A stretch of 31,295 nt of DNA from a virus (Duplodnaviria; Heunggongvirae; Uroviricota; Caudoviricetes). Where the stretch lies: positions 1-31,295 of IMG/VR virus record IMGVR_UViG_2617270940_000005, one strand, 5' to 3'. The notes under the pieces were generated by a model that made no database searches, was not told the DNA's origin, and saw only the letters and a program-made list of their open reading frames with translations. The translations under genes and the position numbers were made by a program. Below, one piece after another: positions 9,958-31,295 of this stretch (position 1 is the stretch's first letter; every line of letters begins with the position of its first letter).

Positions 9958-12900
9958 TTAGTTACGTGGAGTGTTTGGGTTGAGTGATCCGCCAGGGCGT
10001 TTCTCTTGAGCGATAGTCTCAAGCGCGATTGCTTTCATCCGTTGAGCGGCATTGTTCCATATGCTTTCTGTATCGCCGGATTCAGTTGTGCTACCGTCAC
10101 TATGGACGTTGATCTCAATTGATACCGGAGAAAGAACATTTCCTCCTCCACTCATACCATCGGTACTGAGCGTTACAGGGATTGTTCGACCATCAGGCAA
10201 TGGAACATACGCCTCATTCATAGAACCTTCCCCAAACAACGCTAATTGAGGCGAGTTAGCAATACCGCCTTTCTGGTATGCCCGGAGCGGGATCACGCCG
10301 TCTTTTCCGAATATTCCTCCATTTGCAAACTTCGGTATTGCAGGAATGCCTTTAGTTCCGTCAGCCACACAGCTGGTTGCGGTTTTAGCAGAGCTTGATG
10401 CCACGCTGTCGAAACCACCGCCAGCCCAAGCTGAAACAAGACCAGATGCAACCGTTGCTCCAAAACTCAACCACTTATTACCAGAGCCGGAAGCATTAGC
10501 TCCAAGCATTGCAAACGCGGCAGACAGCGCGCCGGTAACAGAGCTGAGGTTCTGCATCGAGAAGATGGAGTCCTTCACGGCTTTTGTCTCGGCATCTTTG
10601 GCTTCAGTGCTATCAAATAGCCCTGATACCCAGCTACCAATCGCATTTGTTGCAGTGCCAATTGCGCTGGTGGTCTGCTGTGTTGTTTGCCCCAATCCAG
10701 TTACCGAACTGGACGTCTCCTTCGTGGCTTCTCCTACCGACTTGTCGCCATTGACCGCATTCATCCGGACGCCTTGGTTGGCAACCGCTGACGCGACACC
10801 AGAAAGAAGATTGCCGCTCTGAGAGCTGCCCGCTGCCGTCGTTCCCATACCCAGCATGTTCATGAGAGGCAGAGTGATCTGCGTCTTCACAACCATGTTG
10901 GTGATGTCGCGGAGAATGGATTCTGCCAGACTGGAGAAGTCCATTTTCCCCTTCATAACGAAGTCGGTCAGCGTATCCGTCATGTTGCTGAACAGGTTGC
11001 TCCAGCTGTTTTCCAGCTGATCGGCCAGATTCTCGTACTCAAGCGCCAGCTTCTGTGTCGCCGTACCCGTCTCTTTGATGAGCGCGGTGTTGCCTGCCGC
11101 CACCAGCTGGTTAATCTGCTTAGTGTACAGCGCCACGATTTTCGGGTCTGAAGCCCGGTCACGCAGATCCATCAACGCTTTCAGGTTACGGTTGTAGGTG
11201 TCTTCGAAATCAGCAACCTTCTCTTCACGAGACGGCTTGTAACCCGCGCTAATGATGGAATCGGATTCCGGCGCCCAGGTGGAGATCATCTGCTCGACGT
11301 TGCGGCGGTTGAACATCTCGCGATATTCAGGTGTCGCATTTTTGAGGTCTTCAAGACGTTTTTTCGCCTTGTCGATCATCTCTTGAGTGATGAACTCGTT
11401 AGGAACCGCATTAGCCAAATCAGTTAGCGATTTTGTTGTATCGCGAAGAGACTGATCAAACGATACCGTAGCCTTAGAGCTTTCACCCATTTGCCCCATA
11501 AGCTGATCGGCTTTATCCAGAGCCTTCTGATATCCGGCCGCCAGTTTCTGTTGCGCTGCCTGTTCTTTCTTGGTCGCACGCTGAGAAGCATTGGCTGTAC
11601 GTCGCCCGGCTTTTTCCGCTGCTGCGGCATCCTGTTCGCGCGCTTTGGTCAGCGCGGCAATGGCTGCGGCGCGTTCCGCATCGCTCATTTTCTCCAGAGA
11701 GCTGGCACTGGATGCTTTCTGCAAATTAAGCTGCGTCTTGAGTTGTTTAGGCCCAATAATCGGCTTACCTTCGAAGTCCATCATCGGAGTGCCGTCAGGA
11801 AAAGTACGCTGATAAGTCGCAGAATCCATCTGGTTTCGCATATATTGCGCCAGAGCTTTCTGGGCCGCCTTGTCGCTCGTACCAAGCCCCAACACGGTTC
11901 CCTGGTTGGACATGACGTCCTTACCAGTTTTGGCGGCGTTATCACGCTCAAATTCGGCCTGAGTCAACTCCTGAGCGACAGCTTCCAGATGCACCTGATA
12001 GCCTAGAATACTGCCTTGTATCTTCTGAACCTGCTCGGTATTGCCCTCTTTCTTCGCCTTTTCGAGCAGATCGTTGTAGTGAGCAATCTGCTTCTCGGTC
12101 GCGTTTTTACGAGAGGACAGGGAATCAACCAGTTTTTGCGCAGGCTCCAGATAGCTTTTGTTTACCGTTTCACGTAACGGTGCCAATAGCTTGTTCTTTT
12201 CGTCATCTGAAAGTGAACCGTCATCATTGATTTTCTGGATCTTATCCAGAGCCTCCTGCCGGGCTTTCACGAATGTTGCCGCGAAAATCTGGTTTTCCGC
12301 TCGAATTTTCTCAATCTGAGATTCGGCAGCCTCTTTAGCCAAACGCTTTGCTACAGCGCCGTCACCAAGAGCTATCGTGCCGGTTATCTTTTGATACTCT
12401 TCCTGATTTTTTTTCAGGCGTGCTTCGATGTCAGCCTTCGACTCTTTGTGAGTAATAACACCGGCAGAGTTAGATACGTAATTAACACTCTCACCAGTTT
12501 TTAATGCTCGTTGATCAGCAAGAATCTGCTTTTCGAGCTTTTCTGCGCGGTCGGCCATTTGTGCACGTTTGGCCGCCGTCATCGCCTCTGGTATTTTCCT
12601 AATCTCGTCAACAACCTTTGAAGTTTCGCTTCGGAGCATGGTCATGTACGTGATTAGGCCAGCAACAGCTACAGTGGCAACTGTAAATGCTGCCCCTATA
12701 GGGTTTGCTGCAATGAACGCCGTTAATCCAGCAAAAGCGCCTTTAAGCCCCGTAATCGCCCCACGGATGGCGAAAATAAGAGAGGGGATCGGAGCCAGCC
12801 CCATACGTGCCGCACGATTGAATCGAGTTACTGCTGTAGCGCCGAGGTTAAATGGAGTCTGTATGGCGGTCGCCATCGTGGCAAAGGTGCTAACCATCTG

Positions 12901-25880: not shown

Positions 25881-26131
25881 CTGCGCTCGATATTGGCATT
25901 GATGAAGTCCAGGCGAAGCGATTCCATCGCCCCAACCATGACGTATGGACGCCCACCGTTATGCCAGCAATCCATAACATTGCCGTCGTTGTCGATCATC
26001 AGCAGAGCCAGGCTCTGACTTTTGCCTTCTCTTGCGTACTGGAGTGCTTCTTCCAGCAGGCGGATGACTTCAACGTTGTTGTTGTCAGTCTCTTTCGATG
26101 GCTTCAGCTCTACGATCTTCAAATCAGGCAT
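25877..26131 (-). CDS. Hypothetical 84-aa protein
   Basis: Overlaps the ATPase gene end by 8 nt and the downstream gene start; no recognisable motif. Confidence 0.45.
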   Translation of the reverse strand: MPDLKIVELKPSKETDNNNVEVIRLLEEALQYAREGKSQSLALLMIDNDGNVMDCWHNGGRPYVMVGAMESLRLDFINANIERR

Positions 26132-26762
26132 ATTCCACCTTCACACGTTCTTTGTAGTGCTTGGTGATCTGCATATCCGGGCGCAGCGCGTTCTTCAGAT
26201 CTTCGTGGGTCGTCGCCACCATTACCGTTGCGCCGACCTTACGAGCAGCACGTTGGAGGTTTGACGCCACAACCTGAGCGGTTACCCGGTCGAGAACAGC
26301 ACCAAATTCGTCTGCTGCCCAGACTTTGGCGCCGGACTCGATCAGCTTGGCGATCTTGAGACGGTATTTCTGGCCGTCAGACATCTCGGATGGCTTGCGC
26401 ACAAAAAGATAGGCGTCATTCAATCCGGCCATAGACAGCAAGCCCAGCGCTTCACTGGTGGTTTTGCCCAGCTGGTCGATGACGTTAACCTCATTGTCGA
26501 AATTAAAATTATCGATGGAGGCCACAGAAAGCCCTTCATCTTTCATCTGGCGTTGTAGCTCGCGCAGAACAACAGATTTACCTGAACCGGATTGGCCGGT
26601 GATGTACACCACATCGCCCTGCTTCACTTCCAGCTCCAGATTGTCGTAAAGCGTCCACTCTTTTTCGTCCAGGCCAAGACCGAACGATTCGGCAATCTCC
26701 AGCGTGCGCGTGGTTTTGTTCACGCGAGTCTGAAACGATACATTGATGGTGTATTTGCTCAT
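26124..26762 (-). CDS. Small ABC-type ATPase (nucleotide-binding domain only)
   Basis: 212 aa; Walker A GQSGSGKS, signature-like MSDGQKYRL, Walker B/D-loop KVWAADEFGAVLD, H-loop VATTHEDL; start ATG overlaps the upstream stop (ATGA). Confidence 0.8.
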   Translation of the reverse strand: MSKYTINVSFQTRVNKTTRTLEIAESFGLGLDEKEWTLYDNLELEVKQGDVVYITGQSGSGKSVVLRELQRQMKDEGLSVASIDNFNFDNEVNVIDQLGKTTSEALGLLSMAGLNDAYLFVRKPSEMSDGQKYRLKIAKLIESGAKVWAADEFGAVLDRVTAQVVASNLQRAARKVGATVMVATTHEDLKNALRPDMQITKHYKERVKVEYA

Positions 26763-27427
26763 GCAGCCAGCTCCCCAGAGGAAACTTTCTCCGCATACGC
26801 CACGAAAGCGTCTACCCCGCTTTCTCCCGTAATTTCTTCCATGTGGGCAAGCAAATCCCCAACCACAATGGCAGAGCCAGCAGGGAGCGTTTTAAAGCCC
26901 AATACGTCGATGACTCGGACTTCTTCAGAGGCTACTTCGCGACTGATCCCGGTGTGCTCTTCTTTCTGGCGTTCCGTCTCTTCACCCAGATCGAGCACCA
27001 GAGAGCCTGTTTCCATCTCTTCGGTCATGCTGCCAACAAGCACGTTCAGCTCTCGCTCTTCAAAACCAAAGACCTCAACGTCACCCAGCACCAGGGACTC
27101 CAGTTCCTGCTGCAATTTGATGGCGTCGTAGTCAATACTGGCCAGGCGGTTGTCTTCAAGACGCTTCGCCTTCACTTCTTCTTCGCTCAGATCGTCGCGA
27201 ACGATGACAGGCACACGCTCCAGACCAGCCAGAAGTGCCGCCTCGCGACGACCGTGACCAGTAATGATGACGTCGTGCTTGTCGACCGTGATCGGCTGGT
27301 CAAAACCGCGCTTTTTGATGGCAGCCGCCAGGTCGCGGATCTGCTGTTCGTCATGTTTTTTGGCGTTCATCTCATACGGGATAAGTTCTGCCGGGTTTCG
27401 ATATACGATTTCAAAGTTCTTGGTCAT
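26759..27427 (-). CDS. ParB/Srx-like N-terminal domain protein (second of tandem pair)
   Basis: Start refined to ATG 27427, overlapping the upstream stop (TAATG). ParB-type motif ITGHGRREAALLAGLERVPVIV; acidic helical C-terminal half. Confidence 0.75.
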   Translation of the reverse strand: MTKNFEIVYRNPAELIPYEMNAKKHDEQQIRDLAAAIKKRGFDQPITVDKHDVIITGHGRREAALLAGLERVPVIVRDDLSEEEVKAKRLEDNRLASIDYDAIKLQQELESLVLGDVEVFGFEERELNVLVGSMTEEMETGSLVLDLGEETERQKEEHTGISREVASEEVRVIDVLGFKTLPAGSAIVVGDLLAHMEEITGESGVDAFVAYAEKVSSGELAA

Positions 27428-28107
27428 TACATACGCTCCTTGTAGTAGTCGACCAGCCACACCAAGGCTTCCCCGGCGTTCTCCATTTCGTTACCGGTAT
27501 TGATTCCCTGCTCTTTGATGATGGTTTTGATGGTATCGGCGACGCGATCTGACGCATCGAACGTCACTTTGAAGCGCATCGTCTGGTGTTCAGCACCGAC
27601 TCGCTCGATTTTCTCGCGTTTGTCCTCACCGATCGGCTCGTCATCGCCGCGGGAGAGCGCTTCCAGCGCTTCAAGATCGATAACGGATGCTTTGGCGAGC
27701 GTTGCCGCCATTTCGTCGTCATACGGGGCGATATCAGACAACCGGTAGTCAATTTCAGACTGAATTTCTTCGATTAAGCGTTGCAAAGCGATCTGATCGT
27801 CTTCGCCGTAGCGCTCGTTATCGACGAGAGACATCTGTTTGGCCACCAGGTCGTTAATTTTTCCCACCGAGATGACGGGAACCGTTGAAATGCCCTGCTC
27901 CATCGCGGCACGCCAGCGATGTTCGCCACCGAGAATCTCAAAAATGCCGCCGTCCAGCTCTCGCGCCAGAATTGGCTTAAAAAAGCCCAACTTTTCGATG
28001 GAACCTTTCAGTTTTTCGAAGTTTTGCGCCCCAACGGAGTTGGTATTCCAGGGGTTCGGACGCAGGTTCGCGACTTCCACCTGTAGAATCGTAATTTTCA
28101 CATCCAT
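27427..28107 (-). CDS. ParB/Srx-like N-terminal domain protein (first of tandem pair)
   Basis: 226 aa; LRPNPWN...ILGGEHRWRAAMEQGISTVPVI matches the ParB N-terminal domain arginine-rich motif; first gene of the operon. Confidence 0.75.
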   Translation of the reverse strand: MDVKITILQVEVANLRPNPWNTNSVGAQNFEKLKGSIEKLGFFKPILARELDGGIFEILGGEHRWRAAMEQGISTVPVISVGKINDLVAKQMSLVDNERYGEDDQIALQRLIEEIQSEIDYRLSDIAPYDDEMAATLAKASVIDLEALEALSRGDDEPIGEDKREKIERVGAEHQTMRFKVTFDASDRVADTIKTIIKEQGINTGNEMENAGEALVWLVDYYKERM

Positions 28108-28189
28108 ATTTTTGATACAATCTATTGTGTAAGTACTTACTTAACATAATAGCCAATTACCATACAAAAGGCACGAAGGAAAGAGGTTT
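28108..28189. promoter_or_regulatory. Divergent intergenic control region between the ParB operon and the helicase operon
   Basis: 82-bp AT-rich gap between divergent starts, containing the motif palindrome and possible -35/-10-like hexamers (TTGATA, CATAAT) with non-ideal spacing. Confidence 0.5.
28129..28140. repeat. Instance H of TAAGTA..TACTTA motif (perfect 12-bp palindrome)
   Basis: gtaagtacttac, followed by ttaacat. Confidence 0.65.
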
Positions 28190-28528
28190 ATGACTGTTCG
28201 GATTGTATCAAATGCAGTCAATGCGCTGATTTCTGGCGCTGATGACAACGTGAAACGGCTCGTTCAGGAGATGTTGAGCTATGAAGTGGAGGCTGGTGAC
28301 TGGAAAGGGACCAGCACGATGTTCAACTGGAGTAAAAACGCGTTCCCGGCTGGGTTTGCGAAGCCAGTTGCGACCAATCTTCTGAAAGCTGGCATCAAAT
28401 GCGTGCATGTTCGCAAGGAAAAGCTCCCGCGCTGGGTAAGCCGAATCCGGTGGTTAATCCATTCCCGTATAACCCGGACTACGCGTATCAGGATCAGACA
28501 GTGGAAACACTGGTGCGCGAAGGGATGA
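28190..28528 (+). CDS. Hypothetical protein; possibly the N-terminal segment of the helicase separated by a frame change
   Basis: ATG 28190 with strong RBS AAGGAAAGAGG. The first ~78 codons look protein-like; after ~28420 the frame becomes Arg/Trp-rich, while the helicase frame opens at 28336 with its only start at 28399. Confidence 0.5.
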   Translation: MTVRIVSNAVNALISGADDNVKRLVQEMLSYEVEAGDWKGTSTMFNWSKNAFPAGFAKPVATNLLKAGIKCVHVRKEKLPRWVSRIRWLIHSRITRTTRIRIRQWKHWCAKG

Positions 28529-29748
28529 TGATTGCCCAGATTGCGACGGGTGGCGGTAAATCGAACGTAGCGTGTAAGGCAGCAGCTCGCATTGGTCGTA
28601 TGACGCTGTTTTTAACCACGCGCTCGGTTCTGATGTTCCAGATGGCAGAAAACTTCCAGAAATCCATCGACTACCGCGCGAAGAATGGCGAGCCGTGGCT
28701 GAAAGGTCAGAAAGTTGGGGTGATTGGATCTGGTGAGTTCCAGGTATCGCGCCATATCAACGTTGCCACGGTTCAGACCCTGGCTAGTTTTCTCGAAGAG
28801 CCGTCGCGCGACGCATCTCCAGAGAAAAAAAAGTATCACCTGAAACGCCGAGAACTGGTTAAGCGCTTCCTGTCCAGCGTTTCTCTGCTGATTCTGGAAG
28901 AAGCGCACGAATCATCCGGCTCAAACTTCTACGATATAGCCCGGTTGTGTACCAATGCCGACTACCGTCTGGCGCTGACAGCTACGCCGTTCATGAAGGA
29001 CTCGACTGAAGCAAATATGCGTCTCATGGCCGTTGCGGGTCGCATCGAGATAAAAGTAACGGAGAAATATTTGATCGACAGAGGTATTTTAGCGAAACCA
29101 TACTTTTTATATCATAAAATCGCGTACACTCCAGATGAGGCGCGGATTAGAGCCGAACTTGCTTCAAAACACCTGAATTTTAGGGTTGGAATGAGCACGG
29201 CTTACCAGAAAGCCTATCAGTTAGGTATCGTCTATAATCTGGGCCGCAACGAAGCTATTGTGCGTGAAGCGCTAATGTACAAGAGTCACGGTCTGAACTG
29301 TATGACATTGGTTCGTCTGAAGCGTCATGGTCAGATCTTGATGGAAATGATGAAAGAGAGTGGCCTCAAGGTCGATTTCATCTACGGAGAATCAAACCAG
29401 ACTACCCGACAAGCAAAACTTAATAGTCTGGCGGCAGGCAAGATAGATGTTCTCATTGGTTCAACCATTCTGGATGTTGGTGTCGACGTTCCAAGCGTAG
29501 GCGCGGTGATTCTGGGTGGTGGCGGGAAAGCAGAAGTTGAAATGAGACAGCGTGTCGGTCGTGGCTTACGAGCCAAGAAAAATCAGGCTAACGTGTGCTT
29601 TATTACCGACTTCATCGACGTGAGCAACAAATACCTCATGTCGCATTCATATGAGCGGAAACACATTATCGACACGACGCCTGGGTTTGCCGAGGGGGTC
29701 TTGCCGGTTGGCAGCACATTCGATTTCACTGTTTTGGATAGAGAGTAA
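28399..29748 (+). CDS. SF2 helicase (DEAD/DEAH-type core)
   Basis: Motif I IATGGGKS, motif II LILEEAHE, motif III LTATP, C-terminal helicase motifs (GSTILDVGVDVP, QRVGRGLR). Weak RBS; start sits 130 nt inside the upstream ORF. Confidence 0.85.
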   Translation: MRACSQGKAPALGKPNPVVNPFPYNPDYAYQDQTVETLVREGMMIAQIATGGGKSNVACKAAARIGRMTLFLTTRSVLMFQMAENFQKSIDYRAKNGEPWLKGQKVGVIGSGEFQVSRHINVATVQTLASFLEEPSRDASPEKKKYHLKRRELVKRFLSSVSLLILEEAHESSGSNFYDIARLCTNADYRLALTATPFMKDSTEANMRLMAVAGRIEIKVTEKYLIDRGILAKPYFLYHKIAYTPDEARIRAELASKHLNFRVGMSTAYQKAYQLGIVYNLGRNEAIVREALMYKSHGLNCMTLVRLKRHGQILMEMMKESGLKVDFIYGESNQTTRQAKLNSLAAGKIDVLIGSTILDVGVDVPSVGAVILGGGGKAEVEMRQRVGRGLRAKKNQANVCFITDFIDVSNKYLMSHSYERKHIIDTTPGFAEGVLPVGSTFDFTVLDRE

Positions 29749-29750
29749 GC

Positions 29751-30029
29751 ATGAGCGAGAAACGCGCTATTAACTGCCAGGTTAAGTTAACCGAAAAAGC
29801 AAACGATAAACTAGAGACCTTTCAGAATCGACTGCGTGAACGCAGCATAAAACTGTCAAAGGCAGACATCATCAATCTGGTGCTGTCCAATATGACGATG
29901 GGTGATTTTGATAAGATAGCTACGTCATTAGAGACTACTGCAAAGGCTCGTGAAAAGGTCATGAAGATTTACGAAAACTCGGGTATGACCAAAGAAGATC
30001 TGGCCGATATTCTAAAACGCCTCGATTGA
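29751..30029 (+). CDS. Hypothetical 92-aa protein
   Basis: ATG 3 nt after the helicase stop (translational coupling); charged helical protein; followed by a terminator. Confidence 0.5.
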   Translation: MSEKRAINCQVKLTEKANDKLETFQNRLRERSIKLSKADIINLVLSNMTMGDFDKIATSLETTAKAREKVMKIYENSGMTKEDLADILKRLD

Positions 30030-30515: not shown

Positions 30516-31028
30516 ATGACGAATATTACTGACATCACCTACGGCATACAGGCTGAAGTCTGGCCGCGAGACTACGAACATGCTGAAAACATACTTATGT
30601 TCTGGCGGAAGAACAACATTCCTGTAAGAGTCACGCTTGAAGACGGTCAGGTGTTTTGCATGTACGTCTACGGGCTATTGAGCGCAAGAAATAAGCTGAA
30701 CCTCACACCAGATCCGCTTAGCAATACAAATCGTGTAAGGCTCCCTCTTGAGCGCATTAGCACAATTGAGTCAGGCATAGAAGAGGTTGACACTTCATTC
30801 ACAGGTCGACTAACGCTGAACAATGAACAGATGGTTAATCAGCCATCACGCCGTGACTTTTTTGCGATATGTCGCAAGGCTTATCAAAACGACCAATCTA
30901 TAAGGGTCTACATGGCAGACGGTCGTGAAATAGAAGGGGTATCAAGAGGCGTTGATGCTTGCCAGGTCACTCTTAAGTTAGAAGACGGCAGAAAAATACT
31001 TGTTTTCTTCGATTGGGTTGAACGAATC
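30516..31028 (+). pseudogene. Gene with an internally duplicated small domain, 3' end truncated by the IS1 insertion
   Basis: Reading frame runs straight into the IS1 terminal repeat at 31029 (...DWVERIG then IS1-encoded residues to a stop at 31109). Two related segments: NIPVRVTLEDGQVF and QSIRVYMADGREIEGV...ILVFF. Alternative in-frame ATG at 30474. Confidence 0.5.
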
Positions 31029-31295
31029 GGTAATGACTCCAACTTACTGATAGTGTTTTATGTTCAGATAATGCCCGATGACTTTGTCATGCAGCTCCAC
31101 CGATTTTGAGAACGACAGTGACTTCCGTCCCAGCCTTGCCAGATGTTGTCTCAGATTCAGATTATGTCGCTCAATGCGCTGAGTGTAACGCTTGCTGATT
31201 ACGTGCAGCTTTCCCTTCAGGCGGGATTCATACAGCGGCCAGCCATCCGTCATCCATATCACCACGTCAAAGGCCGACAGCAGGCTCAGAAGACG
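31029..31295 (-). mobile_element. IS1 insertion sequence, terminal 267 bp (insB end), continuing beyond the window
   Basis: ggtaatgactccaacttactgatagtgttttatgttcagataatgcccgatgac is the IS1 terminal inverted repeat region; the minus strand encodes the InsB C-terminus. Confidence 0.9.
31044..31295 (-). CDS. insB: IS1 transposase InsB, C-terminal part (5' end beyond window)
   Basis: Translation ...[69 protein letters not shown] matches the InsB C-terminus as I recall it. Confidence 0.85.

What the first reader, a model, noticed from the sequence alone, without database searches (positions are those of the whole stretch)
28190..28528. Frame break between an N-terminal ORF and the SF2 helicase core
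A strongly initiated ORF (ATG 28190) overlaps the helicase ORF by 130 nt. The helicase frame has a single possible start (ATG 28399) with no Shine-Dalgarno sequence, and the upstream frame turns into low-complexity Arg/Trp-rich sequence exactly where the helicase frame opens. This fits (a) a single-base indel or sequencing error at the run ggaaaag (28417-28423) splitting one ~530-aa helicase, (b) a programmed -1 shift at A_AAG (28420-28423), or (c) two genuinely overlapping genes.
Basis: seen in the sequence. Interest (0 to 1): 0.5.

Follow-up and report, generated by a model that had tools for sequence, protein, structure and literature searches.

The report
One-base deletion splits phage-plasmid helicase gene
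The two overlapping reading frames are a single, well-known 519-residue helicase gene of an SSU5-type phage-plasmid that has lost one A from a run of five in this one draft assembly; it is an ordinary frameshift lesion or base-calling error, not a recoding signal or a pair of genes.

Summary
ORF 28190-28528 (112 aa) and ORF 28399-29748 (449 aa) overlap by 130 nt in different frames. The cause is a missing base. The window has GGAAAAG (A4, 28419-28422), while every relative examined has GGAAAAAG (A5) and one 1560-nt gene of 519 aa starting at the equivalent of 28190.

The window is contig JNPB01000033.1 of E. coli 2-052-05_S4_C3, part of an SSU5-like phage-plasmid. Across 2001 nt it differs from plasmid NZ_CP110979.1 only by that A. 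A conceptual -1 read-through gives a protein 100% identical to that plasmid's annotated helicase.

All 47 independent loci held here read through the junction in one frame. No A4 copy turned up in plasmid, E. coli, viral, genome or metagenome collections. The fused architecture holds down to about 40% identity.

The break falls at residue 78/79, just after a UvsW_N-like N-terminal domain (residues 1-75) and at the start of the linker to the SF2 core.

There is no slippery heptamer, no downstream RNA structure and no conservation of the split, so programmed frameshifting and "two genes" are rejected.

This is the only isolated indel in 31 kb, which mildly favours a real recent mutation over an assembly error. 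Only the reads can decide. Interest is low.

The parts
28176..28186 (+). Shine-Dalgarno-like AAGGAAAGAGG serving the true helicase start at 28190
   Evidence: Read directly. Relatives annotate the CDS start at the equivalent of 28190.
28190..28423 (+). Codons 1-78 of the helicase gene. They encode the N-terminal domain (model residues 1-75, UvsW_N-like) and the first residues of the interdomain linker.
   Evidence: Identical to residues 1-78 of WP_266059171.1. The AlphaFold model places a compact beta/alpha domain at 1-75 and an unstructured linker at 76-95. PF21241 UvsW_N scores above its cut-off in the 50%-identical homologues P0078 and P0086.
28419..28422 (+). A4 run: the lesion. One A is missing relative to the A5 run of all relatives.
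   Evidence: Alignment A1. Regex tally: 40 loci with A5, and A4 only in the window's own contig. It is the only isolated indel against three relatives over 31 kb.
28424..28528 (+). Out-of-frame tail of the truncated product (34 Arg/Trp-rich codons plus a stop at 28526-28528). It is not a conserved coding sequence in this frame.
   Evidence: Translation. The exact 112-aa product is absent from the 15-billion-protein collection.
28399..28401 (+). Fortuitous ATG in the downstream frame, used by the depositor's annotation (KDV90401.1, 449 aa). It has no SD. In the intact gene it is out of frame.
   Evidence: In relatives this triplet lies inside codons 70-71 of the single ORF.
28423..29748 (+). 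Codons 79-519 plus the stop of the helicase gene, now in the -1 frame: the linker and the SF2 core.
   Evidence: Translation is 100% identical to residues 79-519 of WP_266059171.1. Pfam DEAD, ResIII and Helicase_C score above their cut-offs. Invariant motif I T120-G121-G123-K124 and motif II E237-E238-A239-H240.
29751..30029 (+). Downstream 92-aa gene that starts 3 nt after the helicase stop. It is conserved in synteny and could suffer polarity from the upstream frameshift (inference).
   Evidence: The same gene follows the helicase in all relatives.

Best explanation
The region holds one gene, not two. It is the 519-residue UvsW/XPB-type SF2 helicase that SSU5-like phage-plasmids carry next to their ParB-ParB-ABC block.

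In this contig (E. coli 2-052-05_S4_C3) one A has been lost from an A5 run, leaving A4 at 28419-28422. The likely mechanism is slipped-strand misalignment during replication, and I take it to be a real, very recent mutation in the sequenced DNA.

Ribosomes that start at ATG 28190 make the N-terminal domain, run 34 codons out of frame and stop at 28528. The helicase core (28423-29748) is then left without a proper start. It could be made only from the SD-less ATG 28399, from later internal starts, or by rare spontaneous -1 slippage of tRNA-Lys from AAG (28421-28423) to AAA (28420-22). That slippage would recreate the wild-type sequence exactly, but is expected at roughly 0.1% (the without-stimulator tetramer value in PMC4066793, barely above that paper's no-motif background).

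The net effect is loss, or strong reduction, of helicase function.

Shown here: the deletion, its uniqueness to this contig, the single-gene architecture of relatives, and the domain position of the break. Inferred: that the deletion is in the DNA rather than in the base calls, and what it does to expression.
For: Relatives have one 1560-nt CDS starting at the equivalent of 28190, and the only difference at the junction is A5 versus A4.

Window 27900-29900 has 0 substitutions and 1 missing A against NZ_CP110979.1, and the conceptual -1 product is 100% identical to that plasmid's helicase.

The restored protein finds a single place covering at least 80% of the query in 985 of 1024 plasmid records. 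All 58 sampled rows with full-length matches are one piece, down to 40-42% identity in Acinetobacter, Aeromonas and Raoultella.

All 47 independent loci read through residue 78/79 in one frame.

No A4 copy exists among 28 plasmid and 16 complete E. coli matches, nor among 11 viral, 3 genome and 7 metagenome contigs.

Evidence favouring a real mutation over an artefact:
- It is the only isolated indel in 31 kb, although the window holds 86 homopolymer runs of 5 or more and 335 runs of 4 or more. The other 30 CDS are intact.
- The exact 449-aa product is on record from two sources (NCBI and Logan) and on two contigs of 20-50 kb. This suggests that an independent re-assembly gave the same allele.
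- The same plasmid copy has an IS1 abutting the neighbouring regulator gene.
Against: The allele is private to one 2014 draft assembly and sits in a homopolymer, the classic site of base-calling and assembly errors.

The flanking 2 kb has no substitution relative to an intact copy, so nothing shows that the lesion has any age.

The gene is intact in roughly a thousand plasmids, so its loss is presumably disfavoured.

I could not see the reads, and I could not display the second (presumably Logan) contig or confirm which sample it comes from.
Confidence: 0.6

Rival explanations
1. Sequencing or assembly artefact: the strain's DNA really has A5 and an intact 519-aa helicase gene, and one A was under-called in the consensus of this draft contig.
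For: The lesion lies in a homopolymer. It is unique to this assembly among all collections searched. The surrounding 2001 nt are otherwise identical to an intact copy. Other assemblies yield scattered out-of-frame fragments of this same gene (P0002, P0004, P0006-P0010, P0013), so errors of this type are common in public data.
Against: No other isolated indel appears among 86 runs of 5 or more nt and 335 runs of 4 or more nt in the 31-kb contig, and all 30 other CDS are intact. The assembly is therefore not indel-prone. The exact 449-aa product is recorded from a second source and contig (Logan), which argues against an error peculiar to one assembler, though not against a systematic read error.
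Confidence: 0.33
2. Programmed -1 ribosomal frameshifting (or a tolerated 'saviour' shift) at A_AAG 28420-28423 joins the two frames to make full-length helicase in useful amounts.
For: A -1 slip of tRNA-Lys from AAG to AAA followed by GCU would give ...RKEKAPALG..., exactly the wild-type protein. A_AAG is the most shift-prone tetramer in E. coli when a strong pseudoknot follows it (up to 5.6%; PMC4066793).
Against: No relative uses two frames here (0 of 47 loci; 985 plasmid records with a single place), so nothing has been selected for recoding. The heptamer G_GAA_AAG is not X_XXY_YYZ. The 77 nt downstream fold at -17.6 kcal/mol against a shuffle mean of -19.2 (z = +0.55). Tetramers without a stimulator gave 0.147% against a 0.112% background (PMC4066793). 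The SD-like AAGGA lies immediately next to the site rather than about 10 nt upstream as in dnaX (spacing rule from my own knowledge).
Confidence: 0.03
3. Two genuine genes or a phase-variable switch: either a small N-domain protein plus a separately initiated helicase core, or ON/OFF switching of the helicase by length changes of the A run.
For: The break falls almost exactly at a domain boundary (N-domain 1-75, linker 76-95). The two pieces could in principle fold on their own. In T4, a small separate ORF (UvsW.1) accompanies UvsW (Kerr et al. 2007, recalled from memory; cited in the reference list seen).
Against: No relative has a stand-alone N-domain gene. Hits to the 78-aa query are partial entries or fragments that go out of frame at different positions. 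Homologues of the core are 495-557 aa, meaning they carry the N-terminal extension. ATG 28399 has no SD and no promoter-like site lies in 27900-28700. A run of 5 is far shorter than known contingency tracts (my knowledge), and only one length other than A5 was seen, once.
Confidence: 0.02

Closest known systems
The 519-aa DEAD/DEAH box helicase of SSU5-type phage-plasmids (e.g. SSU5_124 / YP_006906756.1; WP_266059171.1 of E. coli plasmid pYUXYEH3934-1; also on Yersinia pestis and Salmonella plasmids of this group)
   Same: Same locus and same synteny: divergent from two ParB_N genes and an ABC ATPase, and followed by a 92-aa gene. Nucleotide identity is 93.7% to SSU5 and 100% to pYUXYEH3934-1 apart from one base. 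The restored protein is 100% identical to WP_266059171.1.
   Different: The window copy lacks one A of the A5 run, so the ORF is split 78 + 441 codons across two frames. The depositor annotated only the 449-aa downstream ORF.
Bacteriophage T4 UvsW (PDB 2OCA) and archaeal XPB helicases (PDB 6P4W, 5TNU, 2FWR)
   Same: An SF2 two-RecA-domain core preceded by a small N-terminal domain. A family profile finds UvsW as the best solved-structure match (E = 1.2e-26). Foldseek puts archaeal XPB and UvsW on top, with alignments spanning more than 500 columns. PF21241 UvsW_N is detected in 50%-identical homologues. UvsW acts on branched DNA and replication forks (PMC3778716).
   Different: Only 15-18% sequence identity. 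The window's own N-terminal 78 aa give no direct Pfam hit. No biochemical data exist for the phage-plasmid enzyme, and its role in SSU5-like elements is unknown.
Homopolymer frameshift pseudogenes and homopolymer base-calling errors in bacterial draft genomes
   Same: A single-base length change in a short mononucleotide run, private to one assembly, that splits a conserved gene into two overlapping ORFs.
   Different: Nothing distinguishes this case from the generic one. The only notable coincidence is that the break lies at an interdomain linker.
Tetramer-type -1 frameshift sites (A_AAG) of IS elements and dnaX-type recoding
   Same: An A_AAG tetramer sits at the exact point where a -1 shift would restore the protein.
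   Different: It lacks a heptamer, a stimulatory structure and evolutionary conservation of the two-frame layout. The expected efficiency is near background (PMC4066793).

Membership tests
SSU5-type phage-plasmid 519-aa helicase orthologue group | Colinear full-length similarity to the 519-aa protein | tested here: met
   After a conceptual -1 shift at 28423 the product is 519 aa, 100% identical to WP_266059171.1, with 9 differences from SSU5_124.
SSU5-type phage-plasmid 519-aa helicase orthologue group | Conserved neighbourhood (ParB_N, ParB_N and ABC ATPase divergent upstream; 92-aa gene 3 nt downstream) | tested here: met
   Gene tables show the same order in the window and in 20+ other contigs.
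SSU5-type phage-plasmid 519-aa helicase orthologue group | Uninterrupted reading frame | tested here: not met
   The frame changes after codon 78: tblastn gives two HSPs in frames 2 and 1. This is therefore a disrupted copy (or a mis-called one), not a functional member as written.
UvsW/XPB-like SF2 helicases | SF2 helicase core (motifs I, II; two RecA-like domains) | tested here: met
   Pfam DEAD 56.1 bits, ResIII 55.7 and Helicase_C 50.0, all above their cut-offs. Invariant GxGKS and EEAH. Model pLDDT 89.8.
UvsW/XPB-like SF2 helicases | UvsW_N-type N-terminal domain (PF21241) | tested here: inconclusive
   The window's residues 1-78 and P0015 give no direct Pfam hit. P0078 (34.2 bits) and P0086 (28.9 bits) pass the 25.3-bit cut-off, and they align with the window protein over the N-domain, with invariant W38, G40, F52 and G55. 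Foldseek alignments to 2OCA and XPB span the full length.
UvsW/XPB-like SF2 helicases | ATP-dependent unwinding, annealing or branch migration on branched DNA | not testable with these tools
   Biochemistry is needed. The function is known for T4 UvsW only (PMC3778716).
Programmed -1 ribosomal frameshift sites | Slippery heptamer X_XXY_YYZ in the 0 frame | tested here: not met
   The 0-frame codons are CGC AAG GAA AAG CTC. The heptamer is G_GAA_AAG, and only the tetramer A_AAG fits.
Programmed -1 ribosomal frameshift sites | Downstream stimulatory hairpin or pseudoknot | tested here: not met
   28424-28500 folds at -17.6 kcal/mol against a shuffle mean of -19.2 (z = +0.55); 143 of 200 shuffles fold at least as well. 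Pseudoknots were not modelled.
Programmed -1 ribosomal frameshift sites | Two-frame organisation conserved among relatives | tested here: not met
   0 of 47 independent loci. 985 plasmid records match in a single place. Every locus whose sequence matched the junction pattern has A5 (40 loci).
Phase-variable homopolymer (contingency) loci | Long hypermutable tract, with both in-frame and out-of-frame lengths common in the population | tested here: not met
   The tract is only 5 nt in relatives. 40 loci have A5, and A4 occurs only in the window's own contig. No A4 appears among the 28 plasmid and 16 E. coli genome matches.

The most novel reading that the evidence does not exclude
The A4 allele is real and the element still gets by. 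One route is low-level spontaneous -1 slippage of tRNA-Lys at A_AAG, which would regenerate exactly the wild-type 519-aa helicase (a 'saviour' frameshift). The other route is that the lesion happens to cut at the interdomain linker, so a free UvsW_N-like domain and an N-terminally truncated helicase core are both made and work in trans. This would be a natural domain-split experiment on a UvsW/XPB-type helicase.
Probability: 0.04. Interest if true: 0.3.

Novelty: already known. Interest (0 to 1): 0.05.

Why it matters
It matters mainly for annotation hygiene. KDV90401.1 (449 aa, 'DEAD/DEAH box helicase family protein') is the truncated reading of a 519-aa gene. The locus should be flagged as a frameshifted pseudogene or a probable sequencing error, and automated scans should not count it as a recoding candidate.

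If the deletion is real, it shows that this SSU5-like phage-plasmid can persist at least briefly without its full-length UvsW/XPB-type helicase. That is a small hint that the gene is dispensable for plasmid maintenance, but one isolate does not establish it.

Tried and rejected
1. I looked for the A4 allele elsewhere and found none.
- BLAST of a 71-mer against PLSDB plasmids and complete E. coli genomes.
- A gapped pattern that accepts either A4 or A5, scanned against viral, genome and metagenome contigs. Every match was A5.

2. I tried to find sibling isolates or the second contig that carries the 449-aa product.
- The look-up of encoding contigs shows only one of the two places.
- Look-ups with neighbouring proteins returned unrelated assemblies, all with an intact 519-aa gene.

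3. I searched the paper library for the accession and for the strain name, hoping to learn the sequencing technology. Nothing relevant was found.

4. A search with the 78-aa N-terminal piece returned only short entries: partials plus fragments that go out of frame at scattered positions. It returned no full-length proteins, so it could not show the architecture on its own. The 449-aa query and tblastn did.

5. Pfam gives no direct hit for the window's N-terminal 78 aa. The UvsW_N assignment rests on homologues and on the structure model.

6. Programmed frameshifting, transcriptional slippage on A4 (the run is too short, from my own knowledge), an internal promoter for ORF2 (none), phase variation and a true two-gene arrangement were each considered and rejected, for the reasons given under the rivals.

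Full report
**What is in the sequence**

The window carries ORF 28190..28528 (112 aa, ATG) and ORF 28399..29748 (449 aa, ATG) on the + strand. They overlap by 130 nt in different frames.

ATG 28190 follows AAGGAAAGAGG at 28176-28186. The helicase frame opens after a TAA at 28333-28335. Its first start codon is ATG 28399, and the 20 nt upstream hold no SD-like motif. Later in-frame GTG/ATG codons exist at 28450-28528.

**Where the window comes from**

An exact look-up of the 449-aa product identifies the window as the whole of contig JNPB01000033.1 (31,295 bp) of assembly GCA_000703445.1. The product is annotated as KDV90401.1 of Escherichia coli 2-052-05_S4_C3.

The DNA is an SSU5-like phage-plasmid:
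- 93.7% identity to Salmonella phage SSU5 over the 2-kb query.
- 503 plasmid records match at megablast level, from Escherichia, Enterobacter, Yersinia, Salmonella, Klebsiella and others.
- About 97-98% identity to several E. coli IncFIB phage-plasmids over 25 kb.

**The cause of the frame break**

In NZ_CP110979.1, phage SSU5 and NZ_CP010244.1 the same stretch is annotated as a single 1560-nt CDS. It encodes a 519-aa 'DEAD/DEAH box helicase' starting at the equivalent of 28190. The matches in those records are 2002 nt long for a 2001-nt query.

The alignment shows one difference at the junction: relatives read GGAAAAAG and the window reads GGAAAAG. Window 27900-29900 has no substitution at all against NZ_CP110979.1, only the missing A. 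Translating 28190-28423 and then 28423-29748 (a conceptual -1 step) gives a protein 100% identical to that plasmid's helicase. It has 2 differences from NZ_CP010244.1 and 9 from SSU5.

**How general is the single-gene form**

- tblastn with the restored 519-aa protein finds 1024 plasmid records. In 985 of them one place covers at least 80% of the query. All 58 sampled rows with full-length matches are single pieces, down to 40-42% identity in Acinetobacter, Aeromonas and Raoultella.
- Homologues of the core in the 5.8-billion-protein set are 495-557 aa, so they carry the N-terminal extension. The few shorter entries are partials.
- Twenty further contigs that share exact neighbouring proteins all have a 519-aa gene call.
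- Over all loci held, 47 of 47 independent ones read through residue 78/79 in one frame. Forty are full-length single HSPs, six are cut by the end of the held DNA, and one covers residues 1-505 of 519 (its ORF is 517 aa).
- The run is A5 in 40 loci and A4 only in the three loci that are the window's own contig.
- No A4 copy exists among 28 plasmid and 16 complete E. coli genome matches to a 71-mer, nor in 11 viral, 3 genome and 7 metagenome contigs found with a pattern that accepts either length.
- A search with the 78-aa N-terminal piece returned only short entries. These are partials, or fragments that go out of frame at different positions in other assemblies. None is a conserved small gene.

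**What the protein is and where the break falls**

Pfam finds DEAD, ResIII and Helicase_C above their cut-offs.

A 45-sequence family alignment (47-90% identity to its first sequence, P0015) has invariant motif I (T120 G121 G123 K124) and motif II (E237 E238 A239 H240). It also has invariant residues inside the N-terminal region: W38, G40, F52 and G55.

A profile of that alignment finds T4 UvsW (2OCA) as the best solved-structure match (E = 1.2e-26), followed by archaeal XPB.

Two homologues of about 50% identity match PF21241 'UvsW_N' above its cut-off at residues 4-77 and 15-82. The window's own N-terminus does not match directly.

The AlphaFold model of P0015 (94% identical in the region shared with the window's 449-aa product) is confident: mean pLDDT 89.8 and pTM 0.87. 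It shows a compact domain at residues 1-75, an extended linker at 76-95, and the helicase from residue 96. Foldseek places archaeal XPB and UvsW on top, with alignments longer than 500 columns.

The lesion at codon 78/79 therefore falls just after the N-domain, at the start of the linker.

**Real mutation or artefact**

I compared the whole window with three relatives of 97.6-98.2% identity. The A-run deletion is the only isolated indel. All other gaps are compensating pairs inside divergent segments, an in-frame 3-nt difference in the tape-measure gene, or intergenic.

The window holds 86 homopolymer runs of 5 or more nt and 335 runs of 4 or more. All 30 other CDS match their orthologues end to end in one frame. 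The assembly is therefore not generally indel-prone.

The exact 449-aa product is recorded from NCBI and from Logan, and on two contigs of 20-50 kb. This suggests an independent re-assembly with the same allele, but I could not display the second contig.

On the other side, the allele is private to one draft, sits in a homopolymer, and has no accompanying substitutions.

I put a real, recent slipped-strand deletion at about 0.6 and an under-called base at about 0.33. Only the reads or a Sanger trace can settle it.

**Why it is not recoding**

A -1 slip of tRNA-Lys from AAG (28421-28423) to AAA (28420-28422) would restore the wild-type sequence exactly. Several points count against this being a recoding signal:
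- The heptamer G_GAA_AAG is not of the X_XXY_YYZ type.
- The 77 nt downstream are no more structured than shuffles (z = +0.55).
- In E. coli, Z_ZZN tetramers without a stimulator gave 0.147% against 0.112% for non-shifty controls. A_AAG reached the top of the 0.26-5.6% range only with the IS3 pseudoknot (PMC4066793).
- Above all, no relative needs a shift here.

No promoter-like site lies in 27900-28700, and ATG 28399 lacks an SD. There is therefore no sign of a separately expressed core either.

**Consequences (inference)**

- Ribosomes make a 112-aa product: the N-domain plus a 34-residue nonsense tail.
- The helicase core is produced at most at trace level.
- The roughly 1.2 kb of untranslated mRNA could reduce expression of the tightly following 92-aa gene (29751-30029) through polarity.

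**Verdict**

This is an ordinary frameshifted copy, or a mis-called base, of a well-known and widely conserved phage-plasmid helicase gene. Interest is low.

Noticed in passing
window 31029-31295 (and gene 30516-31109): The contig ends inside an IS1 copy (InsB frame on the minus strand, 31044-31265). The IS1 abuts the 3' end of the Flag1_repress-type regulator gene. Relatives' 174/175-aa product aligns only up to 31028, so the last codons are replaced and the ORF runs on into IS1, giving 197 aa.
   Followed up: partly
window 30516-31028 (DNA 30576-30870): The regulator gene is a divergent allele: 69.8% amino-acid identity to the relative in L004, whereas neighbouring genes are 95-100% identical. 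The DNA here aligns only with many gaps. It looks like a mosaic or recombinant segment.
   Followed up: no
window 10761-10762: The tape-measure gene has an in-frame 3-nt deletion relative to three close relatives. The protein still aligns end to end (1521 aa, 97.2% identity).
   Followed up: no
L019 (JAEWTL010000044.1): A contig labelled 'MAG: Bacillota bacterium OH_SDB_141' carries this enterobacterial SSU5-type helicase sequence at about 98% protein identity. It is probably a mis-binned contig.
   Followed up: no
proteins P0002, P0004, P0006-P0010, P0013: Public protein sets hold many short fragments of this gene's 5' end that leave the frame at different positions. These are sporadic frameshifts or errors in other assemblies. 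Only P0013, from noisy contigs of 1 kb or less, is altered at the same A run (RKE-SPALG).
   Followed up: partly
window 26127-28107, minus strand: Two tandem ParB_N-domain genes (226 and 222 aa) and an ABC-type ATPase gene (212 aa) lie divergent from the helicase gene. The arrangement is conserved in all relatives examined. Its function in SSU5-like elements was not examined here.
   Followed up: no
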